Source: Escherichia phage vB_EcoS_UTEC10
Sequence record: PP291582.1
Length of the DNA stretch: 44,773 bases
Strand: one strand, 5' to 3'
The number at the start of each line of letters is the position of its first letter. The stretch's first letter is position 1. A program made the position numbers and the translations under genes. The notes beneath the pieces are model-generated. The model saw only the letters and a list, made by a program, of their open reading frames with translations. It had not been told where the DNA came from and made no database searches. Shown here piece after piece: positions 1,561-44,749 of the stretch.

Positions 1561-1591
1561 CTAGTCATTGCAGAAAATAGATAAAAAAAAA

Positions 1592-1614
1592 TCCCGGCTG
1601 GGTCAGGGCCGGGA
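1592..1614 (-). terminator. Rho-independent terminator (minus strand)
   Basis: GC-rich hairpin CCCGGC/GCCGGG at 1593-1613 followed on the minus strand by a 9-nt T run (A run 1583-1591 on plus strand). Confidence 0.55.
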
Positions 1615-1697
1615 TAAAACTGGAGAGTAGAGGGATGGAACAGGAGGTGATTTAAGTATCGTCGGATTAGTCTCAGGTGTCAATTGGTAAAATAAAA

Positions 1698-1716
1698 CCC
1701 GGATTCGCGGTCCGGG
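1698..1716 (-). terminator. hairpin terminator downstream of endolysin
   Basis: CCCGGA-N7-TCCGGG hairpin flanked by a T-rich run on the minus strand. Confidence 0.4.
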
Positions 1717-1846
1717 TTTCGGTCATAAGCCCCTGAACCCTACGCAGTCTCCACCGCTTGGGCTGCTGCTTCAGGTTTACCAGGGCTTAGTGTGCAAGCA
1801 CAAACAGCGTGGAAGTAAGTTTACTAAACGCCTTCGTATTCGTCCA

Positions 1847-2347
1847 TCATTTAACAGCCCTCCCAATAGCCTCAGCCTCTTGCCACGGTTTACCGTCGAA
1901 CAGTGCAAGCCGTCCGGCGGTACGGCGGCGCAGGCCGAGTAACGGTTTACCGTTCTGGTTGATGAACAGCGCCAGCTTAGCCTGCAGCGTCGCAATATCT
2001 CCCCGCCGTAGCGCCTTACCTGTGCCTGTAGTAGCGGCAATCACACCTGCTCCGGCGTTATACACCAGGTCACACACCGCGTCAAACTGAGCCTGTGTCA
2101 GTGAATGGTGTGCTGCTGCGTCAACCGCAGCTACGGCCTTAGCCATATCGCGATTCAGTAACAGGAGGCCTTGTCCGGGGGTGATGGTCTTACCAGGTGT
2201 TACGTCAGGCCCGTAGTGACCATAGCCAATAGTAAGGTACTTCTCGTTCGGCGTAGCACGATACGCAGTTCCGCGGAATCCCTCGAACGCGGCAGTGAAA
2301 TGCAACCCATTATCTGAAATATTTCGAGACACGCTTATGTCCTCCAT
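1847..2347 (-). CDS. endolysin, T4-type lysozyme fold (GH24-like)
   Basis: FEGFRGTAYRATPNEKYLTIGYGH matches the catalytic Glu-Asp-Thr region of T4-type lysozymes; start uncertain (ATG 2347 or TTG 2383). Confidence 0.8.
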   Translation of the reverse strand: MEDISVSRNISDNGLHFTAAFEGFRGTAYRATPNEKYLTIGYGHYGPDVTPGKTITPGQGLLLLNRDMAKAVAAVDAAAHHSLTQAQFDAVCDLVYNAGAGVIAATTGTGKALRRGDIATLQAKLALFINQNGKPLLGLRRRTAGRLALFDGKPWQEAEAIGRAVK

Positions 2348-2582
2348 ACGACAGCCACGCCTGACGAATCTGACGCAGCGCAACTAATGTGATTAATGTC
2401 TCCGGCAACGTCGGGGACATGCTGCCCTGTAACAGGTGGATGCATCCGGCGACGCAGACGATAGCGGTCAGGATATAGAGCACCCGACCAAACAGCCCGT
2501 CGTCCACGCTGGGGTGGTACACATTAAACAGCGATGTGCCCCCGATTGCCAGCATACCGCCGAACCAGAATAGTTCATTCAT
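2310..2582 (-). CDS. two-TM membrane protein, holin/antiholin-like
   Basis: Internal ATG at 2582 with GAGGAGG RBS; 90 aa with two hydrophobic helices; sits between holin and endolysin. Confidence 0.45.
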   Translation of the reverse strand: MNELFWFGGMLAIGGTSLFNVYHPSVDDGLFGRVLYILTAIVCVAGCIHLLQGSMSPTLPETLITLVALRQIRQAWLSYGGHKRVSKYFR

Positions 2583-2883
2583 CTGTGCCTCCTCGACGTG
2601 CGATGTATTCTCCGGCGACGATACCAGAGAGACGGGAATAGATAGGCATCCAGAGAATGGCGATAATGAAGCCCAACCCGGCGATTTCACGGTCGCCCGT
2701 GATTCCAAACCATTGAGCTGCGAGAGGCGCGCCAAATACTGCGCAAGTGAAGCCGGTTGCAATAAAGCAGAAGCCGTCGATAGGGCCGGAAATAGCGGAC
2801 TTATGTTGTCGTAGTCCTATTACCCCTCCGGCTAGCGCGGCAGCGAGAAGCCACCCCGTCACTGTTTCAGTAAATTTATCCAA
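2575..2883 (-). CDS. holin (three predicted TM helices)
   Basis: 102 aa, three hydrophobic segments, charged C-terminus; TTG start with GGAGGA RBS; immediately upstream of the lysis genes. Confidence 0.55.
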   Translation of the reverse strand: MDKFTETVTGWLLAAALAGGVIGLRQHKSAISGPIDGFCFIATGFTCAVFGAPLAAQWFGITGDREIAGLGFIIAILWMPIYSRLSGIVAGEYIARRGGTDE

Positions 2884-3383: not shown

Positions 3384-3673
3384 TTATGTCTCCAGATGTA
3401 TTGTCGTCTCTGCGGTTTCGTTGGAATATCATCGTACCCCCGCGATTTCCAGTAATTAAATAGCCGATTAGCGATAGCGGCGCGTTCCTGTGTTTTAAAC
3501 TCACCGAGATTCACGGCCTTCCCGTTCTGGAATCCGCAGGCGCGGACAGCTTTGCGTCTGGCCTGAATCTCTGGGTACAGCGCGTTACGGCGGCGCTTGT
3601 ATATCTGTATTTTAGCTCTCGGCGACAGCGGCGCGAGGCCGCTTCGTTTCAGGATGTCAGTTGCAAGAGACAT
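3380..3673 (-). CDS. hypothetical basic protein
   Basis: 97 aa track ORF, ATG start, ATGA overlap with the downstream gene. Confidence 0.5.
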   Translation of the reverse strand: MSLATDILKRSGLAPLSPRAKIQIYKRRRNALYPEIQARRKAVRACGFQNGKAVNLGEFKTQERAAIANRLFNYWKSRGYDDIPTKPQRRQYIWRHK

Positions 3674-3901
3674 TTATTGCCTCTCTATTTTAAAATGATA
3701 CATAATTCCGGATAACGCACCGATAGCCGTGTTGACATTGAAGTCTTTAATGTCGCAGAGGTTTCTAAGATACCGAACAGCATCAGCGAGTTCCGCGAAG
3801 TCTTCGTAACGTACCCAATCACCTTCGTCACTCTTAACCAGGTCGTTATACGGGTCGTATGGGTATTCACTAACATCTTTAAGCTCGTATCTCTGTACCA
3901 T
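3674..3901 (-). CDS. hypothetical protein, paralog A of a tandem pair
   Basis: Internal ATG at 3901 (MVQRYELKD...); shares VQRYE...LVKSDEGDW.YED with the upstream gene. Confidence 0.45.
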   Translation of the reverse strand: MVQRYELKDVSEYPYDPYNDLVKSDEGDWVRYEDFAELADAVRYLRNLCDIKDFNVNTAIGALSGIMYHFKIERQ

Positions 3902-4188
3902 CACTCCACCCCTTCCACATGTGTAACAGACCCGCAGTTCGCGCACTCGACGTAATCCGGGAACTGGTCTTTGTATTTCTGTAACTCGGCGTTTACTTCT
4001 GCCAGTCTTGACACAAGCCCCTCTATTTCCATATCCGTAGTGGTTATGTAGTCCTGGAAACTGTCGTCCAGTTCCTTGTAATCTTCGTAACTTATCCAGT
4101 CGCCTTCGTCACTCTTAACCAGCTCATGATACGGGTGGCACGAGTTAACACACACAGCTCTAAACTCATATCTCTGTACCACAATCAC
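3901..4188 (-). CDS. hypothetical protein, paralog B of a tandem pair
   Basis: 95 aa; N-terminal 40 aa paralogous to 3674..3901; C-terminus has a CxxC pair; GTG start overlapping the upstream stop. Confidence 0.45.
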   Translation of the reverse strand: MIVVQRYEFRAVCVNSCHPYHELVKSDEGDWISYEDYKELDDSFQDYITTTDMEIEGLVSRLAEVNAELQKYKDQFPDYVECANCGSVTHVEGVE

Positions 4189-28446: not shown

Positions 28447-28863
28447 CTACTTTTCCTGCAATTGGTGTAGCTGTTCATTGTGGAAAACAACAACGTGTTC
28501 AGCGAGGCGTTTATATTGTGAGAAAAGGGTATTCAGGTTCTCTTTATTAAATTCATCGTCGAGACTCCAACCGTTAACTAGTTCAAGTGCTAACTGGCGG
28601 TTAAGGTCCGTCGCGGCGTCTTCCATCTTAATATTGTATTCCGAGAAATCTTTCAGTTCCTCGCATTTATCACGAAGCGGTTTCAATTTACCTAATGCCG
28701 CGCGGTACGCAAGTGTAAACGCCCTCATAGCTTTAACAGCAACGTCTGCCTCCGGTGAAACAACGTTAAGCCACTCCCCTGAATCGGTGCCGTCTTTCAG
28801 TGGGATCGGCATACGGGCGCCTTTTTCCGCCTCAGCTTCGTAATAAAAATCGGAAAGTTTCAT
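28447..28863 (-). CDS. tail assembly chaperone (lambda G-like)
   Basis: 138 aa acidic protein immediately upstream of the T-frame ORF and tape measure gene. Confidence 0.5.
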   Translation of the reverse strand: MKLSDFYYEAEAEKGARMPIPLKDGTDSGEWLNVVSPEADVAVKAMRAFTLAYRAALGKLKPLRDKCEELKDFSEYNIKMEDAATDLNRQLALELVNGWSLDDEFNKENLNTLFSQYKRLAEHVVVFHNEQLHQLQEK

Positions 28864-28970
28864 TCTTTAATCCTTTGGTTAAGAGGTTACTGGTTAAGGT
28901 GAATGCGCCAGGCGGGAACCACCCGCTTTTCGTGTGCGACACTAGGCGCAAACTTATTCTAGCACACTAC

Positions 28971-34531: not shown

Positions 34532-35044
34532 TTAACCCCGGTACACATTAAATGAGAAGCCATTGTTAAGACCACCACACAGTAACGGGCGTAAGGCGTC
34601 GTCCGCAGCGGTAATCGCGGTTGTAGCGCCGCTGCTGCCGTTGTTGAAGTATGTCACTGTTACTGCGCCCTCAACACGCTCAGTCTGCACGGAACGCCCG
34701 TCAGAGTTGGCCCGCACTTCCGTGCCCGCGCCATATGTGGCGGAGGCGATTACCTGCGCAAGAATTACCTGTTTCGGGATAACATTATCCGCTACCGGGA
34801 ATCCGTTTAACATAACACCGGTACGAGGGTATGCCAGAGACTGTTCAGCGGATACACGACGACCGCACATCTGCGGTTCTGCAAGCCCGACATAAGTAGC
34901 GCCGTTGCGCAGGGCAACTTCAGCTGCGGTATCGTCTTCCGGTAGCTCAAGGCCATAATTAGCCGCTAACGCTCGGGCGTCAGCCAGACTAATGTAACTG
35001 TCAGCATTAGGGACGATTTCACCCGTTTCCACGATTAGCGGCAT
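34532..35044 (-). CDS. head-tail adaptor / head completion protein
   Basis: 170 aa; synteny downstream of capsid-associated genes. Confidence 0.45.
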   Translation of the reverse strand: MPLIVETGEIVPNADSYISLADARALAANYGLELPEDDTAAEVALRNGATYVGLAEPQMCGRRVSAEQSLAYPRTGVMLNGFPVADNVIPKQVILAQVIASATYGAGTEVRANSDGRSVQTERVEGAVTVTYFNNGSSGATTAITAADDALRPLLCGGLNNGFSFNVYRG

Positions 35045-35047
35045 AAA

Positions 35048-35227
35048 TTATTCCTCTGATTTACGGCGACGACGCTTAGCACCACCGCCGTTGTTGTGCG
35101 CTTCTTCGTTGTCCGGTTGAGACGCAACCAGTTCATCCGCTTCTACAACACCGCGAACTGGCATCACCTGGCCGTTAACAACGTCAACGTGTGTGTACTT
35201 TTCGCGGATTACGTAATTATCTGCCAT
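35048..35227 (-). CDS. small protein with basic C-terminal tail (59 aa)
   Basis: Manually translated (MADNYVIREKYTHVDVVNGQVMPVRG...GGGAKRRRRKSEE); AAGGAAAGG RBS. Confidence 0.4.
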   Translation of the reverse strand: MADNYVIREKYTHVDVVNGQVMPVRGVVEADELVASQPDNEEAHNNGGGAKRRRRKSEE

Positions 35228-35985: not shown

Positions 35986-37035
35986 TTAAGCCCCTACACC
36001 AGTTACCAGGAAGGCAATCGGTACGTGCTTACGCTCAACCACACGATTCCAGTTGGAGGCGTTAGCCAGGTCCTGCCAGGAAGCGGAGCGTGCAACAGTC
36101 TCGGTGCCATTCCCAGTGATTACTGCGCTGGTGAAGCTGTAGCCAAACGGATGCAGCAGCCAGGTCTTACGGGTCCACAGGGTTTCAACGCCGCCACCGT
36201 TACCGCGGGACGCTTCGCGCTCGTATTCCAGCGGGTTAGACGGATTGCCTTCACCGTAACCGATAGCGCCGTTGCCGAAGATGATGGAGATGAACTTGCG
36301 GCTCGGGCCAGTTCCGACCACGGTCATGCTGTCATCAACAATCACACGGTAGCCCTGGTAGGTGGCGAACAAGGTGTCGTTGTCGGCGTCTCTGATGAAG
36401 TCGATAAGTTGCTGCTTACGCGCCTGCGCATAAACGAAGCTGTGCATCGCGATAGCGCCCAGCACTTCACCGCCGTTGCCCATCAGCGCATCGCCCATAG
36501 TCTGGGTAGCGTCGATGAATGCGCCAGCGTCGAAGCCCAGAGAAGCAGACACGTCGATAACCATATCGTTCTGCGTATGGTATTCATCGGTAGCGGCTAC
36601 GTTGTCGTTGTACAGACCGAGCGCGGTAGCAATCAGACGGCGTTGCGCCTGGCGCTGCCAGAAGTTATCCAGGCGAGAAGCTACGGATTGCAGCGGGTTC
36701 TGGCTGGTAAGTTCTACAGTCAGGTCCGCCTGACCGAAACCCTCGTTCAGGTACGCCACGCGCGCCATCATCTCGCCGGTCTGCACGTTACGCGGGGTGG
36801 CGATGTCCTGGTATACGTCGTTCGAGTAGTTAGGCTCGATAGAAGTATCAATCGCTTTCCAGAAAGGAATATTAGCGACGTTGGACGGGCCGCGGGCAAT
36901 CTCGGCAGCGTATGGGGTCGGGGTCAGAATACCAGACTGGAAGAATGCGGTTTTTTCTACCGGGTCCTCGGTCATATAAGACGCCAGGACCGGGATGTTG
37001 CCAGTTACGATATCGCCGATAGTGGTAATTGCCAT
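35986..37035 (-). CDS. major capsid protein
   Basis: 349 aa immediately downstream of the scaffold gene. Confidence 0.75.
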   Translation of the reverse strand: MAITTIGDIVTGNIPVLASYMTEDPVEKTAFFQSGILTPTPYAAEIARGPSNVANIPFWKAIDTSIEPNYSNDVYQDIATPRNVQTGEMMARVAYLNEGFGQADLTVELTSQNPLQSVASRLDNFWQRQAQRRLIATALGLYNDNVAATDEYHTQNDMVIDVSASLGFDAGAFIDATQTMGDALMGNGGEVLGAIAMHSFVYAQARKQQLIDFIRDADNDTLFATYQGYRVIVDDSMTVVGTGPSRKFISIIFGNGAIGYGEGNPSNPLEYEREASRGNGGGVETLWTRKTWLLHPFGYSFTSAVITGNGTETVARSASWQDLANASNWNRVVERKHVPIAFLVTGVGA

Positions 37036-37037
37036 TA

Positions 37038-37739
37038 TTATTTCCTCAGGGCTTTAAGTTGCCGTTCAAATTCGGCAGGGTTCGATTTATACAGGGCTAA
37101 ACGCTCTGCTTCACTCATGTCTTTAAACGCTGGTGCGGCCCCGCCGCCTTTGCTACCGGAAGCCCCGCCGCCGGAAGCTGCATTTGCTTTAATCAAATGC
37201 GAAAACGCTTTGTGTTCACGCAGGTATTTGCGGAACTGTTCCGGGTCAGTCGTGATTACATTGCCGTCTGCACCAACAAACTTAGTAACCACATCATCGC
37301 CTTCGAACTCAGTCTTAACGAACGGTGCAAGAATGTCTACCGCTTCCGGGGTGATGAAATCACCTGCGAAAGAGCCTAACACCGCTTTACGTTCGCTGCC
37401 GAGGATGCGCTCTGCCATTTTGGAGATGCGACCATCTTTCTCGGCTAACACCGGGTCATACTGGCTACGAATCGTCTTTTCAAACTCGTCCATCTTACCG
37501 GCGGCCTTTAACGCCTCCTGGTGTGCGCGCTGCCGTTCTTCTTCAGCCTCTTTTGCTTTGCGAGCGGCTTCTTTCTTCTCCGCCAGCAATGCTTCCTGAT
37601 TGGCCTTAAGCCCGGCAACTTCTTTCTCAATCAGCGCCTGAACTTCTTCGGCTGTGAACATTTTCGGCGCGTCACCGCCACCGGCTTTATCTTCTGCTCC
37701 AGCTTCTTCCTGGAACGGATAACGTAAAAAACGATTCAT
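37038..37739 (-). CDS. scaffolding protein
   Basis: Internal ATG (MNRFLRYPFQEE...); highly charged helical protein rich in Ala/Glu/Lys immediately upstream of the capsid gene; track start 37793 is TTG. Confidence 0.65.
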   Translation of the reverse strand: MNRFLRYPFQEEAGAEDKAGGGDAPKMFTAEEVQALIEKEVAGLKANQEALLAEKKEAARKAKEAEEERQRAHQEALKAAGKMDEFEKTIRSQYDPVLAEKDGRISKMAERILGSERKAVLGSFAGDFITPEAVDILAPFVKTEFEGDDVVTKFVGADGNVITTDPEQFRKYLREHKAFSHLIKANAASGGGASGSKGGGAAPAFKDMSEAERLALYKSNPAEFERQLKALRK

Positions 37740-37821
37740 AGTCAGTATGTCCCCTGGACGTTGGAATCCGGGCCCCCCGGATTTACATGTCAAGAATAAA
37801 TTATTCCAACATGCAAGGCAA

Positions 37822-38085
37822 CTATTCCAGAATATTCCTCACGTAGTCCTGCAACATGAACACTTTCAGACGCAGTTGCCGCACGCATTCGGCGTTCTGA
37901 ACGTCAATAGCTAAGTCCTGGTCAGCATCGCTACTTGGCGTGGCCAGTTTGCACGGTGGCTGCATCATCGTCGTATCCGGAGATGGAATTGGCGTTGGCG
38001 ACGGCGCGGGACTTGAGCAGGACGCGAGCATCGTCAAAAGTGCACACGCTGCGACCAGGCGTTTTAATGTACTTAACGACTTCAC
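37822..38085 (-). CDS. o-spanin (Rz1-like outer-membrane lipoprotein)
   Basis: LLTMLASC lipobox followed by a Pro-rich sequence; starts inside the i-spanin gene in another frame and extends past it. Confidence 0.55.
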   Translation of the reverse strand: MKSLSTLKRLVAACALLTMLASCSSPAPSPTPIPSPDTTMMQPPCKLATPSSDADQDLAIDVQNAECVRQLRLKVFMLQDYVRNILE

Positions 38086-38317
38086 GGGTAATTACCTCTG
38101 ATTTCGTCTTGCCTTCGTTGTCAGCGGCGGCTGCCTTTGATTCATCCTGCTGCTGCCGTTGTGTTTTCTTCGCTAACTCAGCCTGTGCTTTCTGCTGTTG
38201 CTGCGAAACGAGATTAGCGCGGCCTTCGTCCCAACCAGCGCGGTACTGGTAGATGCCGTGTGCGTATAACAGGATGATGAAACATGCTCCCGCTACGACA
38301 GTTGCTTTAAGATTCAT
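37931..38317 (-). CDS. i-spanin (Rz-like)
   Basis: N-terminal TM helix (ATVVAGACFIILLYAHGIY) followed by a Gln/Ala/Lys-rich coiled-coil region. Confidence 0.55.
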   Translation of the reverse strand: MNLKATVVAGACFIILLYAHGIYQYRAGWDEGRANLVSQQQQKAQAELAKKTQRQQQDESKAAAADNEGKTKSEVITREVVKYIKTPGRSVCTFDDARVLLKSRAVANANSISGYDDDAATVQTGHAK

Positions 38318-38636
38318 GTTTCTCCTTTCTCGATAAGTAAAGCCCCGCCATAAAGCGGGGCGCTAGTCCTTATCATTTAAACATAGAAACGGCGTAATCT
38401 CAGTAAACCCGGTACTTTTTACACAAGCAATAGAGTATGGCCCTTCCGAACGCGTCAGCGTAACTACACTCGGACTTAACGTCCGGCTCCGTTACCTGCC
38501 CGCGCCGCGGTCGCTTGTTCATACTTCACAAGCTCAGGTGGAGCTTATCATATTTTCAGTGAAAAGTCAACTATTCGAATAGTTTATTCCAACATTTACA
38601 ATTGAGCGGAATAACTGGAATACGTAAACAAATAGT

Positions 38637-38665
38637 TTGCGGACACCAATATAATAGGGTACTAT
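38637..38665 (+). promoter_or_regulatory. cassette promoter TTGCGG-N17-TACTAT with embedded AATAG-GGTA-CTATT repeat
   Basis: Near-identical to the promoters at 28971 and 40809. Confidence 0.55.
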
Positions 38666-38691
38666 TCATTACAACGAAACGAGGAGGGTGT

Positions 38692-39231
38692 ATGCTCACT
38701 AAACGTTCAGAAGCCATAGCCGCTGGTGATGATTATTACTTCACGGGAAAACCGTGTAAACGTGGGCATGTTGCGAAAAGGCATGTCCGCACCGGGTGCT
38801 ATGAGTGCGCTAAAGAGATACAAAAATCGTACCGAGAACGCAACGTTGTTTCTTGGGCGGCGAAAAACGCAAAATGGAGGCAAGAAAATAGAGACCGAAT
38901 AGCCGAAATTGACGCAGAGTACCGTAAGAAAAACAAAACCGCCAGGAAAGCCCAAAGGCTAAAGTATAAAACGGCAAAAAGAGCCAGGAGTATAAACATC
39001 AGGAATGATGAATTTGACCTATTAGTATTCGAAGAAGCGCAGGAGCTATGTCAACTACGAGCGGGCGAAACAGGTTTCGTATGGCATATCGACCACATGC
39101 TGCCGCTGCGTGCTAAAACTGTCTCGGGGCTGCATGTCGCAGAAAACATACAAGTTATCCCCGCGGTTCTGAATCTCTTAAAAGGTAATAAATTAATTTT
39201 CACCGAGAGAGGCTCTTGGTTGTCTTCCTGA
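38692..39231 (+). CDS. HNH endonuclease (free-standing)
   Basis: Internal ATG with GAGGAGGG RBS; GDDYYFTGKPCKRGH zinc-binding N-terminus and HIDHMLPLRAK...N HNH motif. Confidence 0.75.
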   Translation: MLTKRSEAIAAGDDYYFTGKPCKRGHVAKRHVRTGCYECAKEIQKSYRERNVVSWAAKNAKWRQENRDRIAEIDAEYRKKNKTARKAQRLKYKTAKRARSINIRNDEFDLLVFEEAQELCQLRAGETGFVWHIDHMLPLRAKTVSGLHVAENIQVIPAVLNLLKGNKLIFTERGSWLSS

Positions 39232-39236
39232 AATTG

Positions 39237-39259
39237 AGGCCCCTTAATGGGGCCTTTTA
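39237..39259 (+). terminator. Rho-independent terminator (AGGCCCC-TTAAT-GGGGCCT)
   Basis: GC stem followed by TTTTAT. Confidence 0.55.
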
Positions 39260-39721
39260 TCATTCTGGCTTAGTAACCTTCGCCGCTTTACTCACAGCCT
39301 CTACTCCATCAGCATCGGTAACTTTAACGAAGTATTCACCGACAGCATTAACTGTCAGAGACAAAGCCTCTTCCGGGGCGTTTACCACTTCCTTACCGTC
39401 TTTGTACCAGGTCAGCGCATACGGCGCTTTGCCCGCCTTAACTTCAACAGTAAGAGTCGCGCTGCCGTCTACCAATTCGGTGTCTTTCGGTTGTACAGAG
39501 AAATACACATCACCAGCGTCCGCCAGATACGGAATCTCGTAAAGCATACCAGCCGCCGGAAGCGCAATACCGGTTTTATCTGCAAACGGCATATCGTCTA
39601 CAGGTGTACCCAGTACACTTTCGTCCTCAATAAATACCACGTTCTCGCCAGAGCCAGACACGCGGGTGTACTGGACAACACGACGCGACGGTACATCAGT
39701 TACTTTGAAAAAGCCCATCAT
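39260..39721 (-). CDS. Ig-like (BIG2-type) domain virion protein
   Basis: C-terminal YALTWYKDGKEV...GEYFVKVTDADG Ig-like pattern; downstream of head morphogenesis gene. Confidence 0.5.
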   Translation of the reverse strand: MMGFFKVTDVPSRRVVQYTRVSGSGENVVFIEDESVLGTPVDDMPFADKTGIALPAAGMLYEIPYLADAGDVYFSVQPKDTELVDGSATLTVEVKAGKAPYALTWYKDGKEVVNAPEEALSLTVNAVGEYFVKVTDADGVEAVSKAAKVTKPE

Positions 39722-40764
39722 TATTCCCCTTTCAGATAATCAGCAACACGTTTATCGAGTTCCGCCATCTGCTTAAGCGTGAGCGGATTCCCGAAACCAT
39801 CTACAGATATTACGCGAAACTCCTCTGGTGAGATACCGCTGTTACGGAAAATCTTGCCTCGCACCGGCCCGAGCGCCTGGTCCTGGAACCATGCCGGTTG
39901 CTGTTTCAGGAACTCATAATAGGTGGTGTCAGCGCTTACCTGAGTACCGCCGTTCGCACCCTTAGCCGCGCGTTTTGCACCTTTATCCAGGAAGTCGAAT
40001 TCTGAACTGATTACCGGGGCCGTGCACGACCGACAATTCGGATGGGCAGGGGGCATCGGCCCCTTACCTATTTCCCACGTCATTCCGTCCCTGGCTCTGC
40101 AAATCGTGCTGGTACGGCTGTCCAGCGTCGACACCCACTCGTACTTCTCAATGATGTCGTCGTTCTGGCGGTATGTCTCGTTGCGGGCTTCGTTGGACAC
40201 GTGAGCCAGCGCGGTACGGATTACTGTAGCCGCGTTGCGTTCAGAGATGTCAGCCAGTCCCCCAGCGCCTACGACATTCTTAACAATCTGCCGTGTTGTT
40301 TGGCCCTGAACAAAGCCCATCTTAACGCCGGTTACCAGGCGCGACACTTCTGTTTCACCCCAGCCGTCCATCAGCTTAGTGAAGTCAACAGGCTTGTCGT
40401 TCAACGCCAGAGGTTGAAACTCGGCAGCAGCCCACACTTGCTCGGCAGTAGGCGTAACAAATTCCGCATTAACGTTGGCGGTCAGAGTCTTTACGTTCCA
40501 TTCGGCCTCATACGCCGCCAGCTCCTTAAGGTCTTCTGTCAGCTTTGTTTGCCAGTCGCCTGTAAACCCCGTTAGCGCTTCTTCGAGGTCGCGTAACAAT
40601 TTATTCAGACGGGCAGTGCTTCGCCCGTCGTCACCGAACAACAGCACCTGCCGTTTGATTTCGTCCCGCATTTCCTGAAGAAACGGTGCAAGGTCTTTCA
40701 CTTCGCCGGATGCAGTGCGTTGCAGCCATATCTGGTGGCTGATTAAGGATGTAAGTAAGCTCAT
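39721..40764 (-). CDS. head morphogenesis protein (SPP1 gp7 / Mu F-like)
   Basis: Internal ATG with AGGAGGG RBS; ICRARDG...PPAHPNCRSC motif characteristic of gp7/F-family minor head proteins. Confidence 0.75.
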   Translation of the reverse strand: MSLLTSLISHQIWLQRTASGEVKDLAPFLQEMRDEIKRQVLLFGDDGRSTARLNKLLRDLEEALTGFTGDWQTKLTEDLKELAAYEAEWNVKTLTANVNAEFVTPTAEQVWAAAEFQPLALNDKPVDFTKLMDGWGETEVSRLVTGVKMGFVQGQTTRQIVKNVVGAGGLADISERNAATVIRTALAHVSNEARNETYRQNDDIIEKYEWVSTLDSRTSTICRARDGMTWEIGKGPMPPAHPNCRSCTAPVISSEFDFLDKGAKRAAKGANGGTQVSADTTYYEFLKQQPAWFQDQALGPVRGKIFRNSGISPEEFRVISVDGFGNPLTLKQMAELDKRVADYLKGE

Positions 40765-40808
40765 AATCCCTCCTGTAGTACCGACAGTGTAACGCATAAA
40801 AATAATAT

Positions 40809-40837
40809 TTGCAGACACCAATATAATAGGGTACTAT
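40809..40837 (+). promoter_or_regulatory. cassette promoter TTGCAG-N17-TACTAT with embedded AATAG-GGTA-CTATT repeat
   Basis: Third copy of CACCAATATAATAGGGTACTATTCA. Confidence 0.55.
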
Positions 40838-40864: not shown

Positions 40865-41026
40865 ATGGTTACTTTGATTACCTGGGAACACGAAAATAGT
40901 CAACCTGAAACGCGTGAATTCGAAACTGTGGCGGCTTGCTACCGCCTGGCGTCAGCCGGATTCTATAAATCACAGATTGTAAATGAGTTTGGAGTGGTGG
41001 ATTATGAGTTTACGAAACAATCTTAA
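40865..41026 (+). CDS. hypothetical small protein (53 aa)
   Basis: Manually translated (MVTLITWEHENSQPETREFETVAACYRLASAGFYK...); AGGAGA RBS 8 nt upstream. Confidence 0.4.
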   Translation: MVTLITWEHENSQPETREFETVAACYRLASAGFYKSQIVNEFGVVDYEFTKQS

Positions 41027-41348
41027 GAATCACTTGAAGGTCTACGGACCCAAGGGGTTGCATTCATGGAACGGCGGGTATGACGTAAACGATGACCTGC
41101 CAATACGTAAAATAGCGCGCGCGGCGAGACGCAATGTAGAGCCTGGCGACGTGCTAGTTATACGAGATAATAATGTCATTGTTGAAGTTGAGAAAGTTCT
41201 TGGTGTGTTTCTCATAGTAATACCTGTTGATGTTGTTTTGCGTGACGCAAGGCCTTACCGAGAAGCTGGGAGCGGTAAAACTGGTAAATACACATACGGC
41301 AGGATTAAGATACATAAAACACATCTTGATAAATTTAAGGCCCCGTGA
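41004..41348 (+). CDS. hypothetical protein
   Basis: Internal ATG of track ORF 40983..41348 (MSLRNNLKNHL...); stop codon lies in the terminator loop. Confidence 0.45.
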   Translation: MSLRNNLKNHLKVYGPKGLHSWNGGYDVNDDLPIRKIARAARRNVEPGDVLVIRDNNVIVEVEKVLGVFLIVIPVDVVLRDARPYREAGSGKTGKYTYGRIKIHKTHLDKFKAP

Positions 41349-41358: not shown

Positions 41359-42846
41359 TTATTGCTGCGGATTCTGTTGGTCTTGCGGGTTAGCCGACTG
41401 CGGAATCTCCCCCGCCACCTGAGTAACCGCGCCCATCGGCAACGGTGCATCCTCGATAGCGTTCTGAATATCCTCATCCGTCCAGTCAGTTACCCCAGCT
41501 TTACGCAATGCCGCGTAGTAAGCGGTAGCTGGTAGCAGGCCTGCGTTAATATCCGCCATCCACTGAGCACGGTCCTGAGCGGTCATCGGTTGCAGGAAGA
41601 ACTCCATGTTCAGTTTGAACTCAACCTCTGTGTCCTCACGCAACCCTAGCATCGCAGCCACCCAGCGCAACGCATCGGTGTACGCCATGCTTACGTTACG
41701 TGCGATTGTCGCCATAACGGATGTATCCGCTCCACGTTGCAGGCGGGCCGATTCCGCGGTGATTTGCTGCGTCGGGGTGATAAGCTGCGCGCCAATCTGG
41801 ATTGCCTGATTCTCTTTATCCAGCATGTTCTGTTTGGCGAGGTTGTTCTCTCCCGCCTGAACCAGAAACGCATTGCCGCCGTAGCCAATGTTATGGCCTG
41901 AGCGCGACCCCATGCGCACGCCGTGAGGGTTGGCTTCTTTCCATTGCTCCATGCTCATGTTTTCACCAGGGGCGATGAACAGAGTTGGCTGGCCTACAAC
42001 AAAGCTGGACTCCTCATTGTCCGCGCTGTTGCGGAAATGCCCGATATTAAGTTCAGCCAACGGCAACAAAGGGGCATCGTCGATGGTTGCGTCGTTGTTG
42101 CTCGCTCCAATGAACGTGAAGGGGATTTTGCCGCGTAACTGTTCGCCAAGTTCCGGGAAGATTTCGATTACTTCACCCTGTGCACCACCTTCTGCATCGA
42201 AGCGATAGATTCGCTGGCGGTAGTGACCGTCAATAAGGTCAAGGACGCGGTATTGCTCACCGAACTTTGTCTCAAATTCCGCGCCGGGTTCTGAGTATTC
42301 CCATACTTCTCGCAACACAACCATTGTCACACGGTTAACTGAACCTACGCGAGTCAGTCGCCAGTTGATGATGTTCTCTGCGGTATAGAATGCGATGACC
42401 GGGTTTAATAAGCCCGCATTCTGTTCTGCCGCCGTCGCCGCGGCTGTCTCCGGGGCGTCCACCAGCAACCCGCCACGGCCTACTGAGTCAATCTCCATCA
42501 GCGTATCCTGCGCGTGCTGCCACAGCCCGACACCAGAACCGTCGGCGTTACGTAATAGGTACTCAAGCTCAGGCGGGATAATCTGCTCGGGGTCTTTGCG
42601 CATCACGGACCCGACCATCCCCGCCAGCGTTCTCTTGGTGAAGTTGTAGCAGATAGCGCCGTTCTCGTATTCTTCCTGGCGCTGTGCTGCATATTTAGGG
42701 TCCGGCTCGTTCTTCCCGACGTTGCGCAGATAGCGAATAAGGTCGCCTTCCAGCGCGTGGCGTACCTTCTGCCATTTATCGAAGTGATGCAGCCATTCCC
42801 GGTGTTTTGTCTTAACACCCTGATTCTGACCGTTCATAGTTAACAT
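41359..42846 (-). CDS. portal protein
   Basis: 495 aa immediately downstream of TerL; AAGAGGA RBS. Confidence 0.7.
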   Translation of the reverse strand: MLTMNGQNQGVKTKHREWLHHFDKWQKVRHALEGDLIRYLRNVGKNEPDPKYAAQRQEEYENGAICYNFTKRTLAGMVGSVMRKDPEQIIPPELEYLLRNADGSGVGLWQHAQDTLMEIDSVGRGGLLVDAPETAAATAAEQNAGLLNPVIAFYTAENIINWRLTRVGSVNRVTMVVLREVWEYSEPGAEFETKFGEQYRVLDLIDGHYRQRIYRFDAEGGAQGEVIEIFPELGEQLRGKIPFTFIGASNNDATIDDAPLLPLAELNIGHFRNSADNEESSFVVGQPTLFIAPGENMSMEQWKEANPHGVRMGSRSGHNIGYGGNAFLVQAGENNLAKQNMLDKENQAIQIGAQLITPTQQITAESARLQRGADTSVMATIARNVSMAYTDALRWVAAMLGLREDTEVEFKLNMEFFLQPMTAQDRAQWMADINAGLLPATAYYAALRKAGVTDWTDEDIQNAIEDAPLPMGAVTQVAGEIPQSANPQDQQNPQQ

Positions 42847-42858
42847 TGAATAATCCTC

Positions 42859-44109
42859 TTAAAGTGCGAAAGTCACCGGGATGTTGATTACGGGTTTAAC
42901 CACCGGCATCTCGTAAACTACAGGATAGCCGAGAGCATCTGCCATATGGTCAATGATGCCGTCTTTAGCGGGCTCTCCGTTATCGTCGTATGCCTGCTGC
43001 TCCAGCGTCTTCGCTATCTCAGGGCATAAGTGGTCGTTAACCCACAGCTTACCTTTTTCCAGCGCGGTATTCACCGCTAAAACACGGTCTTTAACCGGGG
43101 GGTTGGCTGATTTAGCGCGAACATCAAAACCGGCCTGCTGGAGTAACGCGATATCTGAGATTGATGCTGAGTTGGTCTTGCGGTTCTTACCGCTGGCGTC
43201 GGGGTAAACGACAATGCGGTGGCCTTGCGACTTCCACTTCTCGGTAATTACGCGCACAGTATCTGGCGTATCGAACAAGCCTTTCAGTTCAGCCACCGCG
43301 TGCCATCCGTCTTTACGCTGCACATACACTGCGCTTGCGTTCTTCGTAACGTTGAAGTCCTGCCCGATGTACAGTGTGTCGCCGGGTTGAATTGTCTCTT
43401 TGCTGCGGTGCTTATGGCGGTCGTATGCGTAATACACGCTGCCGGACGTCAGGTTTACGAACTCACCATTCAGATACGCGTTAATCAGTTGCGCCGGGTA
43501 AGTCTCTGTCAGCGAGCTAATGTAATCCGGGGGAAGGAATCGCGCATTCTCGTGAGTTGATGCCTGCACCATTGAGTAACTCGGTGTGGGGTTCTCTTTG
43601 AACTTGGCGTAGACGAACTTGAACCCTTCCGGCGTCGTGGTGACGGAGATGTGGTTGGTTACACCAGGAATAACAAGTCGCATACGGGCTACGATTTTAT
43701 TCCACGCCAGCTCCGCTTTTTCCCGGCTCAATACGTCCAACTCATCCACGACCGCAGCGGCGATCTTGAAACCGACTATCGAGCCGGGGTTATCCATTGA
43801 ACGGCAGATAACGGTCCCGAGCACAGTCTTACCGCGAGTTACAACGACTTCTTTGTCGCCGGATTTAACCAGCACATCAAGGCCAAGCAGGTTAGCCGCT
43901 TCCTCGAATGTCGGGTAGAAGATGTCACGTATGGCCGGGTATGTCGGGCCGAAGTAGCCCAGGCGCGTACCGGGGTGCTTGAGCATAAACGTAAGCAGGT
44001 CGAGACATCCGACGAATGTCTTGCCGCTACCGAAGCCGCCGACATAGGCTTTGTACTTGTTATCGCAATTCAGGAACAGTGCCTGTGGCGCGGATAGCTG
44101 AATACTCAT
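42859..44109 (-). CDS. terL: terminase large subunit
   Basis: Walker A GGFGSGKT and Walker B-like AAAVVDELD; C-terminal nuclease-like region; ATGA overlap with the TerS gene. Confidence 0.85.
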   Translation of the reverse strand: MSIQLSAPQALFLNCDNKYKAYVGGFGSGKTFVGCLDLLTFMLKHPGTRLGYFGPTYPAIRDIFYPTFEEAANLLGLDVLVKSGDKEVVVTRGKTVLGTVICRSMDNPGSIVGFKIAAAVVDELDVLSREKAELAWNKIVARMRLVIPGVTNHISVTTTPEGFKFVYAKFKENPTPSYSMVQASTHENARFLPPDYISSLTETYPAQLINAYLNGEFVNLTSGSVYYAYDRHKHRSKETIQPGDTLYIGQDFNVTKNASAVYVQRKDGWHAVAELKGLFDTPDTVRVITEKWKSQGHRIVVYPDASGKNRKTNSASISDIALLQQAGFDVRAKSANPPVKDRVLAVNTALEKGKLWVNDHLCPEIAKTLEQQAYDDNGEPAKDGIIDHMADALGYPVVYEMPVVKPVINIPVTFAL

Positions 44110-44651
44110 TCCTCTACCTCGCCCATATTCGTTGTTACGATTTTACCTACAGGCTCCGCGACACTGAAAATAATCTCAGTCGGTGCTGTTTCTTCGGTGG
44201 ATTCAACCGGTTTCTCTTTGCCGAGACCCAGTTTAGCGGCGGCAAACGTAGCAGAAATACCGGCGGCCCCTGTCTCGGTGAAGTATGCCTCTTCCAACGC
44301 CTGCGCGGTTTCATATGCTTCTGCAAATGCGGGAATCTCGCGCAACCACAGCTTAATAATCGGGATAGTGACGCCGATGTGCAAGGCAAAACGGGCCAAT
44401 GACGGTGGTTTATCCTGAATCAGCGGGCGTTCGTCACCCTTTGACGTAGGCACTAGTTCCCACGACGTGCGGTCGAAGAAACGAATCAATTCGTCGCAAT
44501 AGTCCGGGTCCCACAACGCGGCGGAATTACGGGATGATTGATAAAGGCTCTGTTTACCGCGCGGTCGTTTACGACGACGGTTTGCGCTAACAGCTTCTTC
44601 ATGTGCCGCTTGCACCACCTCTGGCGATGGCTGCTTAAGTTTCAGCTTCAT
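44106..44651 (-). CDS. terS: terminase small subunit
   Basis: Position upstream of TerL; internal ATG 44651 with AAGGGGA RBS (track ORF extends to 44690). Confidence 0.55.
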   Translation of the reverse strand: MKLKLKQPSPEVVQAAHEEAVSANRRRKRPRGKQSLYQSSRNSAALWDPDYCDELIRFFDRTSWELVPTSKGDERPLIQDKPPSLARFALHIGVTIPIIKLWLREIPAFAEAYETAQALEEAYFTETGAAGISATFAAAKLGLGKEKPVESTEETAPTEIIFSVAEPVGKIVTTNMGEVEE

Positions 44652-44749
44652 AGAATCCCCTTGCATATGCGTCTGACCATCAGAGCGCACCAGACGCGCC
44701 CTACGCGTCTAAAGGGATTATATAAGGGGATTGGGCGGGATGTACAGAA

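What the first reader, a model, noticed from the sequence alone, without database searches (positions are those of the whole stretch)
37822..38317. Spanin pair located in the head-gene cluster, about 35 kb from the holin-endolysin cassette
An Rz-like i-spanin and an overlapping Rz1-like lipoprotein sit between the HNH cassette and the scaffold gene, whereas the holins and endolysin are at 1847-2883 with no spanin nearby. The lysis functions are therefore split between early-left and late-structural transcription units.
Basis: partly seen in the sequence, partly recalled or inferred. Interest (0 to 1): 0.45.

Follow-up and report, generated by a model that had tools for sequence, protein, structure and literature searches.

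The report
Known spanin pair in phage head cluster
The two overlapping genes are a real outer-membrane-disrupting "spanin" pair of an E. coli phage, sitting among the head genes away from the other lysis genes, but this family and this arrangement are already described for the whole phage group, so the finding is correct and ordinary.

Summary
Window 37931-38317 (-) encodes a 128-aa Rz-like i-spanin. Window 37822-38085 (-) encodes an 87-aa lipoprotein o-spanin in the +1 frame, overlapping it by 155 bp. The pair lies between an HNH/EndoVII gene and the scaffold gene. Two holins and the endolysin are at 1847-2883 (-), and no other lipoprotein ORF exists in the genome.

The window is a complete Kagunavirus (Guernseyvirinae) genome. 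The pair belongs to the published "Jersey" spanin family (Kongari 2018): same 155-bp overlap, same o-spanin Cys45/Cys67. Its separation from the holin-endolysin genes is already stated in print for relatives and annotated in GenBank.

Two parts of the interpretation need correcting:
- The genome is arbitrarily linearised, so the short arc from endolysin to spanin is 8.3 kb on the same strand, not 35 kb.
- "Early-left" is unsupported. RNA-seq of a related Kagunavirus puts lysozyme and head genes in one temporal class.

New context found here:
- The Hoc-scaffold slot holds a complete lysis cassette in Serratia phage Eta-like relatives and is empty in more distant ones.
- The same spanin family sits in a canonical cassette in a lambdoid Klebsiella phage.
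- A conserved promoter-like dyad block and a structured ~220-nt leader precede the spanins.

Novelty: already known. Interest: low.

The parts
37931..38317 (-). i-spanin (Rz-like), 128 aa. N-terminal transmembrane helix (about residues 5-22), a long helical periplasmic domain, and periplasmic Cys92.
   Evidence: PHROG 2536 at E=8.8e-55. Kyte-Doolittle 15-residue maximum is 2.34 at residues 5-19, and Cys are at 12 and 92. Single-sequence AF2 gives helices 3-84 and 94-107, confident only to about residue 60. dN/dS is 0.22.
37822..38085 (-). o-spanin (Rz1-like), 87 aa, GTG start, in the +1 frame, overlapping the i-spanin 3' end by 155 bp. Signal peptide with lipobox L-A-S-C23 and +2 Ser. Mature part is 65 aa with 9 Pro and Cys45 and Cys67.
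   Evidence: PHROG 5672 at E=2e-29 and PHROG 1267 at E=3.7e-18. Lipobox, Cys and Pro counts. The start position is kept as GTG or ATG, and the lipobox Cys, Cys45 and Cys67 are kept, in all distinct homologues. dN/dS is 0.06 in the non-overlapping part. It is the only lipoprotein-type ORF in the genome.
38542..38622 (-). Conserved promoter-like block upstream of the spanins. It has TATTCC/GGAATA half-sites, the dyad GGAATAAACTATTC (38577-38590) and the palindrome CTATTCGAATAG. These are followed by TTGACT (38565-38570), a 17-nt spacer, and TGaTAAGCT (-10-like, 38542-38547).
   Evidence: Conserved across 48 distinct Kagunavirus and Jerseyvirus upstream regions. The 19-nt motif ATGTTGGAATAAnnTATTC occurs only here and at 37794-37812 (0.07 expected by chance). 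The consensus promoter scan did not flag it, because it matches only 8 of 12 positions. Promoter function is inferred.
38318..38541 (-). About 220-nt conserved 5' leader with a predicted multi-helix RNA structure. It ends in the hairpin GCCCCGC-TTTAT-GCGGGGC (38342-38361) just before the Rz ribosome-binding site.
   Evidence: RNAalifold predicts 23 pairs, 7 of them with compensatory changes. 98.1% of cells are paired against at most 47% in slid controls. MFE z-score is -3.5. No Rfam family matches. The 40-aa ORF 38400-38522 has no PHROG hit, and its ATG is absent in Jerseyvirus.
37741..37821 (-). Conserved Rz1-scaffold intergenic region. It carries the second copy of the dyad motif (37794-37812), TTGACA, and the hairpin AATCCGGG-ggg-CCCGGATT (37765-37783).
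   Evidence: Conserved in 26 distinct sequences. The loop base varies while the stem is kept. Homology stops exactly at the scaffold start codon in loci that carry an unrelated scaffold/MCP. Motif counts.
2575..2883 (-). Holin 1 (102 aa), first gene of the holin-endolysin cassette.
   Evidence: PHROG 2359 at E=1.1e-29. The Sciku homologue is annotated as a class I holin/antiholin.
2310..2582 (-). Holin 2 (90 aa).
   Evidence: PHROG 2508 at E=4.9e-34.
1847..2347 (-). Endolysin (lysozyme type, no N-terminal membrane segment). Start is ATG 2347 or GTG 2332.
   Evidence: PHROG 7 at E=2.2e-40 and PHROG 33703 at E=2.7e-47. Sequence read.
1582..1720 (-). Two terminator-like hairpins with T-runs directly after the endolysin (about 1696-1719 plus T-run, and about 1591-1614 plus T9). 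They close the holin-endolysin unit. Promoter-like sites at 1683-1655 and 1560-1532 follow.
   Evidence: Hairpins were read directly from the sequence; the scan did not list them. A terminator is annotated at the homologous place in phage Sciku. Promoter-like sites.

Best explanation
This is a functional two-component spanin of the 'Jersey' family, at the position typical for its phage subfamily.

How it works (from established spanin biology):
- The 128-aa protein anchors in the inner membrane by its N-terminal helix and extends a helical domain into the periplasm.
- The 87-aa protein is exported, lipidated on Cys23 and sorted to the outer membrane.
- The two C-terminal parts bind across the periplasm. 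Homotypic disulfides (Rz Cys92; Rz1 Cys45 and Cys67) stabilise the complex.
- The complex is held inactive by the peptidoglycan mesh. Once the holins at 2310-2883 permeabilise the inner membrane and the endolysin at 1847-2347 degrades the wall, the spanins fuse the inner and outer membranes and complete lysis.

Why position is free to vary: spanins are harmless until the wall is gone, so they only have to accumulate before holin triggering and need not sit next to the holin.

Expression here: they are probably transcribed from a conserved promoter-like block about 220 nt upstream, possibly together with the scaffold and major capsid genes.

Shown: gene structure, family membership, signal features, purifying selection, conserved position, and the presence of the family in a canonical cassette elsewhere.
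Inferred: membrane fusion activity, disulfides, promoter use and co-transcription.
For: Family and features:
- PHROG 2536, 5672 and 1267 hits.
- TMD; lipobox LASC with +2 Ser; 14% Pro in the mature part; Cys23, Cys45 and Cys67 in Rz1 and Cys92 in Rz; 155-bp overlap.
- These match the published description of the Jersey family: a 155-bp overlap in phage Jersey and constant Cys at positions 45 and 67. Listed members include K1G, K1H, K1ind, SETP13 and SO-1 (PMC6139136).
- SETP13 matches the window at 86.7% nt identity over 2.3 kb, with the genes annotated as spanins. Sciku's i-spanin is 91% identical and is annotated by similarity to the K1G spanin.

Selection:
- dN/dS is 0.22 (Rz-only) and 0.06 (Rz1-only). 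Third-position variability fits each frame.
- The signal peptide has diverged between genera, but the start codon position, the lipobox Cys and both periplasmic Cys are kept in every distinct homologue.

Lysis role by association:
- In lambdoid Klebsiella phage Kp4887-1, the same two families (PHROG 2536 at E=2.6e-45; PHROG 5672 at E=4.3e-21; 37% and 44% identity) follow Q-holin-endolysin directly.

No alternative spanin in the genome.

Conserved position:
- 48 of 48 Rz-anchored loci and 52 of 72 MCP-anchored loci show the same order.
- Dhillonvirus SO-1 has MuF-Rz-Rz1-scaffold-MCP.

Expression signals.
Against: - I found no experiment for any member of this family: no complementation, lipidation or knockout data.
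- Pfam has no family for the o-spanin and only a sub-threshold DUF2514 hit for the i-spanin.
- The AF2 model is single-sequence and low-confidence beyond residue 60.
- In the overlap, the Rz1 frame has dN/dS of about 1.05. This is expected for a signal peptide and linker read out of frame with a constrained gene, but it means that half of Rz1 is supported by conserved features, not by rate.
- The promoter-like block scores only 8 of 12 against the sigma-70 consensus and was not flagged by the scan.
- The hairpin just before Rz could be a terminator, which would argue against simple read-through from upstream.
Confidence: 0.9

Rival explanations
1. The spanin pair is what remains, or a replacement, of a complete lysis cassette that once sat in the Hoc-scaffold slot. 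On this view the split arose because holin and endolysin were lost from the slot and supplied from a second locus, not because spanins moved into the head cluster.
For: In 8 of 72 MCP-anchored environmental loci, and in Serratia phage Eta (MCP 86-89% identical), the same slot holds holin-endolysin-Rz with an embedded Rz1. [quoted passage not shown] Twelve more distant relatives have an empty slot, so the slot has been filled at least once.
Against: - The Eta-type spanins belong to unrelated families (PHROG 13 and 3198, embedded architecture). At least one replacement is therefore needed.
- The conserved dyad and leader flanks of the Jersey-type unit are absent from Eta-like loci.
- Dhillonvirus SO-1 has Jersey-family spanins in the head cluster without a Hoc-like gene.
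- The direction of change cannot be rooted with the data in hand.
Confidence: 0.3
2. The pair forms an autonomous, separately regulated unit (a moron with its own promoter, leader RNA and operator sites) rather than part of the late structural operon.
For: The only two clusters of GGAATA/TATTCC half-sites in the genome bracket the unit. The conserved leader shows covariation. A terminator is annotated after the Hoc-like gene in Sciku and Eta. The Hoc-Rz gap is an insertion hot spot that leaves the block intact.
Against: No intrinsic terminator follows Rz1. The hairpin at 37765-37783 lacks a T-run, and the -35-like TTGACA of the downstream copy is not kept in Jerseyvirus. Read-through into scaffold and MCP is therefore just as likely. 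There are no transcript-end data.
Confidence: 0.35
3. The two proteins are head-assembly or virion components, and the spanin-like features are incidental.
For: They sit between head morphogenesis/decoration genes and the scaffold gene.
Against: - A lipobox and an N-terminal membrane anchor are conserved across genera.
- Homologues lie in a canonical Q-holin-endolysin-Rz/Rz1 cassette far from any head gene in Kp4887-1.
- The genome would otherwise lack any spanin.
- In Eta-like phages the same slot carries indisputable lysis genes.
Confidence: 0.03
4. The overlapping 87-codon frame is not expressed and is a by-product of the Rz sequence.
For: dN/dS in the Rz1 frame is about 1 within the overlap. 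Many database entries call only the last 47 codons (PHROG 5672 profile).
Against: - The 36 codons beyond the Rz stop have dN/dS of 0.06 with clear third-position periodicity.
- The start codon position is kept, switching between GTG and ATG, with a GAGG upstream.
- The lipobox is kept despite divergence of the signal peptide.
- In fEg-Eco19 and in loci with separated spanin genes, the gene exists as a free-standing ORF with a new lipoprotein signal.
Confidence: 0.02

Closest known systems
'Jersey' i-spanin/o-spanin family, overlapped architecture (Kongari et al. 2018, PMC6139136). Members include Jersey, SETP3, SETP13, K1G, K1H, K1ind1-3, HK578 and SO-1.
   Same: - Sequence homology: 86.7% nt identity to SETP13 over the locus; 62-66% protein identity to Jerseyvirus-type loci; over 90% to Kagunavirus loci.
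- The same 155-bp overlap and the same o-spanin Cys45/Cys67.
- The same genomic position between the Hoc-like and scaffold genes.
   Different: Nothing of substance. The lipobox is LASC here, against LSGC or LNGC in Jerseyvirus. This genome also carries an EndoVII/HNH gene in the variable gap upstream, as do SETP13 and LSPA1 but not most relatives.
Phage lambda Rz/Rz1 (the prototype two-component spanin)
   Same: An inner-membrane type II protein plus an outer-membrane lipoprotein, with the lipoprotein encoded in the +1 frame of the same DNA. Both have periplasmic Cys and a proline-rich o-spanin. The presumed role is the last step of lysis.
   Different: No detectable sequence similarity: no Pfam Rz/Rz1 hit and different PHROGs. 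The architecture is overlapped rather than fully embedded. The genes are not adjacent to holin and endolysin. Function here is untested.
Phage T4 PseT.3/PseT.2 spanins
   Same: This is the precedent for spanin genes lying away from the holin and endolysin genes (Kongari 2018, Fig. 8 legend).
   Different: Separated, non-overlapping genes of an unrelated family, and not inside the head-gene cluster.
Serratia phage Eta lysis cassette (Denyes et al. 2014, PMC3918226)
   Same: It occupies the same slot, between the Hoc-like gene and the scaffold/major head genes of a homologous head module. [quoted passage not shown]
   Different: The slot in Eta holds the whole cassette: holin, endolysin and lambda-type embedded spanins of unrelated families (PHROG 785, 7, 13, 3198). 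It lacks the dyad and leader flanks.
Klebsiella phage Kp4887-1 lysis cassette (OK490472, unannotated record)
   Same: The same two spanin families (PHROG 2536 and 5672; 37% and 44% identity), in overlapped arrangement.
   Different: The genes sit in a canonical lambdoid Q-holin-endolysin-Rz/Rz1 cassette just before the terminase genes, not in the head cluster.

Membership tests
Two-component spanin (i-spanin + o-spanin; criteria of Summer 2007 and Kongari 2018) | i-spanin: a single N-terminal transmembrane domain (type II, N-in/C-out) and no signal-peptidase site | tested here: met
   The 15-residue hydropathy maximum is 2.34 at residues 5-19, with no second hydrophobic segment. AF2 places a helix from residue 3. 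Topology itself is inferred.
Two-component spanin (i-spanin + o-spanin; criteria of Summer 2007 and Kongari 2018) | i-spanin periplasmic domain is mainly alpha-helical (two helices joined by a linker) | tested here: inconclusive
   Single-sequence AF2 gives helices 3-84 and 94-107. pLDDT is at least 78 only up to about residue 60, and below 50 from residue 79 on.
Two-component spanin (i-spanin + o-spanin; criteria of Summer 2007 and Kongari 2018) | o-spanin: signal peptidase II signal with a lipobox Cys, and a +2 residue that is not Asp (outer-membrane sorting) | tested here: met
   MKSLSTLKRLVAACALLTMLAS|C23-S-S. Lipobox L-A-S-C with +2 Ser. A lipobox is kept in all distinct homologues, as LASC, LSAC, LTSC, LSGC, LNGC or ITGC. 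Tested by pattern and hydropathy only; no SignalP or LipoP run was available.
Two-component spanin (i-spanin + o-spanin; criteria of Summer 2007 and Kongari 2018) | o-spanin is small and proline-rich, and its gene is embedded in, overlapping or just after the i-spanin gene | tested here: met
   The mature part is 65 aa with 9 Pro (14%). It is in the +1 frame with a 155-bp overlap.
Two-component spanin (i-spanin + o-spanin; criteria of Summer 2007 and Kongari 2018) | Periplasmic Cys residues available for homotypic intermolecular disulfides | tested here: met
   Rz Cys92; Rz1 Cys45 and Cys67. All are invariant in the relatives. Disulfide formation was not tested.
Two-component spanin (i-spanin + o-spanin; criteria of Summer 2007 and Kongari 2018) | Functional: required for outer-membrane disruption and able to complement lambda Rz/Rz1 defects; the two C-termini interact | not testable with these tools
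   This needs genetics and biochemistry. None of the papers read here reports such an experiment for this family.
'Jersey' spanin family (Kongari 2018) | Sequence similarity to listed members (BLASTCLUST cut-offs 0.4 for length coverage and 40 for score coverage), for both components | tested here: met
   SETP13, a listed member, is 86.7% identical in DNA over 2301 nt with the spanins annotated. The SETP13-length contig L051 gives Rz 65% and Rz1 60% identity. PHROG 2536 hit at E=8.8e-55.
'Jersey' spanin family (Kongari 2018) | Overlapped architecture (155 bp in phage Jersey) and constant o-spanin Cys at positions 45 and 67 | tested here: met
   Overlap is 155 bp and Cys are at 45 and 67, matching the text quoted.
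Contiguous lysis cassette (holin-endolysin-spanin, as in lambda) | Spanin genes immediately downstream of the endolysin in one unit | tested here: not met
   The endolysin is followed by two terminator hairpins and unrelated small genes. The spanins lie 8.3 kb further on along the same strand. No lipoprotein ORF lies near the endolysin.

The most novel reading that the evidence does not exclude
The Hoc-scaffold gap of this head module may be a lysis-gene slot whose content has been exchanged during evolution. It is empty in distant relatives, holds a full holin-endolysin-spanin cassette in Eta-like phages, and holds spanins only in Guernseyvirinae. The Jersey-type spanin unit may also carry its own undescribed control device: two GAATA-N3-TATTC dyad clusters, the only ones in the genome, that bracket the unit, plus a covarying, structured ~220-nt 5' leader RNA with no Rfam family. 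Such a device could set when and how strongly the spanins, and perhaps the scaffold and capsid genes, are expressed.
Probability: 0.3. Interest if true: 0.4.

Novelty: already known. Interest (0 to 1): 0.12.

Why it matters
For annotation, it confirms that this genome has a complete lysis system (two holins, an endolysin and a two-component spanin). It also shows that the o-spanin should be called from the GTG at 38085. Many database entries call only the last 47 codons and so lose the lipoprotein signal.

Biologically, it is one more example that spanin genes need not be linked to the holin and endolysin, which fits their passive, wall-gated mode of action. None of this changes current understanding.

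The side observations could interest people who study phage late-gene regulation or module exchange, but they need experiments. These are the shared lysis slot in the Eta/Jersey head module, and the dyad-bracketed unit with a structured leader.

Tried and rejected
- **Pfam.** No family for the o-spanin; only a sub-threshold DUF2514 hit (E=0.005, 17 bits against a cut-off of 26) for the i-spanin.
- **Rfam.** Nothing on the leader at either the gathering or the E-value threshold. ARAGORN found no tRNA or tmRNA.
- **Consensus promoter scan.** It did not flag the conserved block upstream of Rz, so promoter function rests on conservation only. The terminator scan did not list the two hairpins after the endolysin; they were read by eye and agree with the Sciku annotation.
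- **Dyad motif as a general late-promoter element.** Rejected. It has only two true sites in the genome. The 1-mismatch hit at 35041-35054 is just a ribosome-binding site plus start codon. The motif is absent from Eta-like loci. The 'third' dyad in loci with separated spanin genes lies inside the Rz1 coding start (MNKLF).
- **Small ORF 38400-38522 (40 aa; annotated as hypothetical in Sciku and fEg-Eco19).** Probably not a gene. It has no PHROG hit, and its ATG is deleted in Jerseyvirus while the RNA helices are kept.
- **A second or unimolecular spanin near the endolysin.** None found.
- **Per-gene temporal class of the spanins in the K1B4 RNA-seq supplements.** The supplements hold only host tables and co-expression tables.
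- **Searches not used.** The large protein searches (search for homologous proteins, the search of protein representatives) were skipped, because family assignment was already decisive.
Full report
**What is at the coordinates**

The minus strand of 37822-38317 carries two overlapping ORFs.
- ORF 38317..37931 is 128 aa. It starts at ATG, preceded by AAAGGAGAAAC.
- ORF 38085..37822 is 87 aa. It starts at GTG, preceded by GAGG and a 9-nt spacer. It is in the +1 frame, starts inside the first ORF and runs past its stop. The overlap is 155 bp.

The first protein has one hydrophobic segment at its N-terminus (15-residue hydropathy maximum 2.34 at residues 5-19) and Cys at positions 12 and 92.

The second protein begins MKSLSTLKRLVAACALLTMLAS|CSS. 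This is a basic n-region, a hydrophobic core and the lipobox L-A-S-C23 with Ser at +2. The mature part is 65 aa with 9 prolines and Cys at 45 and 67.

PHROG profiles name both 'Rz-like spanin': 2536 at E=8.8e-55, 5672 at E=2e-29, and 1267 at E=3.7e-18. Pfam has nothing above threshold. A single-sequence AlphaFold model of the larger protein is a long helix (3-84) plus a second helix (94-107). It is confident only to about residue 60.

**Surroundings**

The window is a complete genome of a Kagunavirus (Guernseyvirinae). The best matches are E. coli phages CR01 and M01, at 94% identity over 84-87% of the first 25 kb.

On the minus strand the order is:
- TerS (44690..44106) and TerL (44109..42859)
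- portal (42846..41359)
- a Mu-F/SPP1 gp7-like morphogenesis gene (40821..39721)
- an Ig-domain Hoc-like gene (39721..39260)
- on the plus strand, an EndoVII/HNH-type gene (to 39231)
- the two spanin ORFs
- scaffold (37740/37793..37038) and major capsid protein (37035..35986)

It is followed by two hairpins with T-runs and then unrelated small genes. A genome-wide screen for ORFs with a signal peptide and lipobox returned only the 87-aa ORF as credible. There is therefore no other o-spanin or unimolecular spanin.

**Are both genes real?**

I collected 48 loci from IMG/VR with the i-spanin as query, plus GenBank loci. In 41 distinct DNA sequences with identical geometry, the results were:
- The Rz-only part has per-codon-position diversity of 0.109/0.085/0.237 and dN/dS of 0.22.
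- The Rz1-only part has 0.087/0.033/0.249 and dN/dS of 0.06.
- In the overlap, the Rz frame sets the pattern (dN/dS 0.30) and the Rz1 frame runs at about 1.05.

The last value is expected for a signal peptide and proline-rich linker read out of frame with a constrained gene.

The decisive features of that half are nevertheless kept in every distinct homologue:
- the start codon at the same place, as GTG or ATG
- a lipobox (LASC, LSAC or LTSC in Kagunavirus; LSGC or LNGC in Jerseyvirus; ITGC in a variant with separated spanin genes), even though the rest of the signal peptide has diverged
- both periplasmic Cys

**Which family, and is it known?**

Kongari et al. 2018 (PMC6139136) define a 'Jersey' family of i-spanins and o-spanins. 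Its 27 members include Jersey, SETP3, SETP13, K1G, K1H, K1ind1-3, HK578 and SO-1. The paper describes an overlapped architecture with a 155-bp overlap in phage Jersey, and constant o-spanin Cys at positions 45 and 67. The window matches all three numbers.

Further links to named members:
- SETP13 matches the window at 86.7% over 2301 nt, and its genes are annotated 'Rz-like spanin'.
- Phage Sciku's i-spanin is 91% identical. It is annotated by similarity to the K1G 'overlapping inner membrane spanin'.

The separation from holin and endolysin is also in print.
- VB_EcoS-Golestan has spanins at ORF7/8 and holins and endolysin at ORF66-68 (PMC7203180).
- SeF1 has gp9/10 against gp63-65 (PMC9409062).

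The finding is therefore already known.

**Corrections to the interpretation**

First, the '35 kb'. The window's last and first bases are contiguous in relatives: CR01 matches at 99.4% in one piece across the junction. A related phage is predicted to package by headful. The map is therefore circular and the opening point is arbitrary. Going the short way, the endolysin stop (1847) and the Rz start (38317) are 8.3 kb apart on the same strand. In Sciku the same arc is 7.8 kb.

Second, 'early-left'. Nothing in the sequence dates the cassette. The only transcriptome I found for the genus (vB_Eco_K1B4; PMC12645636) puts just 4 genes in the early class. It places lysozyme, NinH, the Mu-F-like protein, capsid and tail genes together in a 'middle' class. 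The spanins are not mentioned there, and the supplements did not help.

What the sequence does support is that the two sets of lysis genes are in different transcription units. The evidence is:
- the terminators after the endolysin (annotated in Sciku)
- a terminator plus a TGTACA-N18-TATAAT site before TerS
- a terminator annotated after the Hoc-like gene in Sciku and Eta
- a conserved promoter-like block before the spanins (see below)

**Evidence for a lysis role from other contexts**

In the lambdoid Klebsiella phage Kp4887-1, a Q-like antiterminator, a holin (PHROG 20) and an endolysin (PHROG 7) are followed directly by two further genes. One is a 122-aa protein, 37% identical to the window's i-spanin (PHROG 2536, E=2.6e-45). 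The other is an overlapping 80-aa lipoprotein, 44% identical to the o-spanin (PHROG 5672, E=4.3e-21). An HNH gene and the terminase genes come next. The family therefore also occurs in a canonical cassette. This argues against a head-assembly role.

**How general is the position?**

All 48 Rz-anchored loci have portal-MuF-Hoc-(gap of about 0.3-1.1 kb)-Rz-Rz1, followed in most by the homologous scaffold and MCP genes. Dhillonvirus SO-1 has MuF-Rz-Rz1-(moron)-scaffold-MCP.

To remove the ascertainment bias, I repeated the scan with the major capsid protein as the anchor. Of 72 loci with enough upstream sequence:
- 52 have the Jersey-type spanin pair in the slot.
- 8 have a complete lysis cassette there (MCP 86-89% identical). 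The cassette is a holin (PHROG 785), an endolysin (PHROG 7) and a lambda-type Rz (PHROG 13) with an embedded Rz1 (PHROG 3198).
- 12 more distant ones (MCP 44-81% identical) have MuF, about 0.8-1.4 kb, and then MCP, with no lysis gene.

The cultured example of the second class is Serratia phage Eta. [quoted passage not shown]

Taken together, the Hoc-scaffold gap is a lysis-gene slot in this head-module lineage. Guernseyvirinae keep only spanins there. Whether that is a reduction of a full cassette or a separate capture cannot be decided here, because the two spanin types are unrelated.

The ~300 nt upstream of Rz are highly conserved across Kagunavirus and Jerseyvirus. They contain three elements.

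1. A block of TATTCC/GGAATA half-sites. It includes the dyad GGAATAAACTATTC (38577-38590) and the palindrome CTATTCGAATAG. These are followed by TTGACT, a 17-nt spacer and TGaTAAGCT (38570-38542).
2. A leader of about 220 nt. RNAalifold predicts 23 pairs, 7 with compensatory changes. 98.1% of cells are paired against at most 47% when partners are slid. The MFE z-score is -3.5.
3. A terminal hairpin (38342-38361) that covaries (CCCCGC/GCGGGG, CCCAGC/GCTGGG, CCCGGC/GCCGGG, CCCGAC/GTCGGG). It has only a weak T-tract.

The caveats are that the structure was derived from the same alignment and that few independent lineages are represented. No Rfam family matches.

The 19-nt motif ATGTTGGAATAAnnTATTC occurs only twice in the genome: here, and between Rz1 and the scaffold gene at 37794-37812 (0.07 expected). 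These are also the only two clusters of the half-site hexamers. The downstream copy is followed by a conserved hairpin whose loop base varies. Eta-like loci lack the motif. I read this as a conserved promoter/operator arrangement specific to the Jersey-type unit. That reading is inference; no transcript data exist.

**Most likely mechanism**

Following the lambda paradigm (established knowledge; Kongari 2018 for the family):
1. The i-spanin sits in the inner membrane and the lipidated o-spanin in the outer membrane.
2. They join through their C-terminal parts into a periplasm-spanning complex stabilised by homotypic disulfides.
3. The complex is restrained by the murein mesh.
4. After the holins trigger and the endolysin removes the mesh, the complex fuses the two membranes.

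Because the complex is inert until then, gene position and exact timing are not critical. This explains why spanin genes are often unlinked from holin and endolysin, with T4 as the classic case.

I put 0.9 on the statement that this is a functional Jersey-family spanin pair. I put about 0.5 on the detail that it is transcribed from the conserved upstream block, with or without the scaffold and capsid genes.

**Verdict**

The finding is already known and of low interest. The side observations are recorded for anyone who wants to follow them.

Noticed in passing
window 38318-38622 (- strand): A conserved promoter-like block with GAATA-N3-TATTC dyads is followed by a ~220-nt leader with a covarying multi-helix RNA structure and a covarying hairpin (38342-38361) just before the Rz ribosome-binding site. 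No Rfam family matches. The annotated-elsewhere 40-aa ORF (38400-38522) is probably not coding.
   Followed up: partly
window 37741-37838 (- strand): The second and only other copy of the 19-nt motif ATGTTGGAATAAnnTATTC lies here, followed by the hairpin AATCCGGG-ggg-CCCGGATT (37765-37783), whose loop base varies among relatives. The last Rz1 codons (…AGGAATATTCTGGAATAG) themselves contain half-sites. This may add to the very low dN/dS of the Rz1 3' end.
   Followed up: partly
L100 1662-2876; L111 851-2071; L132 (Serratia phage Eta) 4575-5783: Relatives with an 86-89% identical major capsid protein carry a complete lysis cassette in the very slot where this genome has only the Jersey-type spanins. 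The cassette is a holin, an endolysin and lambda-type embedded spanins. More distant relatives (for example L113, L119-L130) have the slot empty.
   Followed up: yes
L003 (Escherichia virus fEg-Eco19) 3001-4065: An HNH homing endonuclease gene is inserted inside the spanin locus. The i-spanin gains a diverged duplicate C-terminus (119 aa). A remnant of the original Rz 3' end follows the HNH gene. The o-spanin is now a free-standing 79-aa ORF with a new signal peptide (MRLPILLLVIWCYGC). This converts an overlapped pair into a separated one, like the T5/Shivani case in Kongari 2018. The record annotates only a 48-aa fragment.
   Followed up: partly
window 38602-39256 (+ strand); Hoc-Rz gap in L001-L051: The EndoVII/HNH-type gene lies on the opposite strand in a gap that varies from about 0.3 to 1.1 kb among relatives. 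This particular insert is shared only with a minority of relatives, such as L038, L051, SETP13 and LSPA1. The insertion boundary lies immediately upstream of the conserved TATTCCAGTTATTCC block, which it leaves intact.
   Followed up: partly
L007, L013, L017, L024, L032, L034 (downstream of Rz1): These Kagunavirus-like contigs keep the spanin pair and the intergenic region, but an unrelated gene follows in place of the scaffold, and no homologous MCP is found. Homology ends exactly at the scaffold start codon, so this is a recombination breakpoint at the edge of the spanin unit.
   Followed up: no
PHROG 5672 profile against window 37822-38085: The profile covers only residues 41-87 of the o-spanin. 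Many database entries evidently call this gene from the internal Met40/41 and so lose the lipoprotein signal. Several GenBank relatives, including CR01, label one or both genes 'hypothetical protein'.
   Followed up: no
window 28888-28952 (- strand): This is the only Rfam hit at gathering threshold in the genome: int-alpA RNA (RF02996, 36.4 bits against a cut-off of 35.8). It lies just upstream of ORF 28447-28863, at the edge of the tail-gene region.
   Followed up: no
window 40983-41348 (+ strand): A 121-aa ORF lies on the opposite strand between the portal and the Mu-F-like genes and has no PHROG hit. Sciku, fEg-Eco19 and SO-1 each carry an opposite-strand gene in the head cluster, annotated as a sliding-clamp-like or RusA-like 'moron', though at differing positions. 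Only in Sciku does it lie at this same place, between the portal and the morphogenesis gene. The head cluster has several slots for opposite-strand inserts.
   Followed up: no
L095 2533, L098 2731, L108 2409: In loci with separated spanin genes (of the kind described for FSL SP-031), the first codons of the o-spanin (ATGAATAAATTATTCC, MNKLF) repeat the 15-nt core of the upstream dyad site exactly. This is either coincidence or a trace of the duplication history proposed by Kongari 2018.
   Followed up: no
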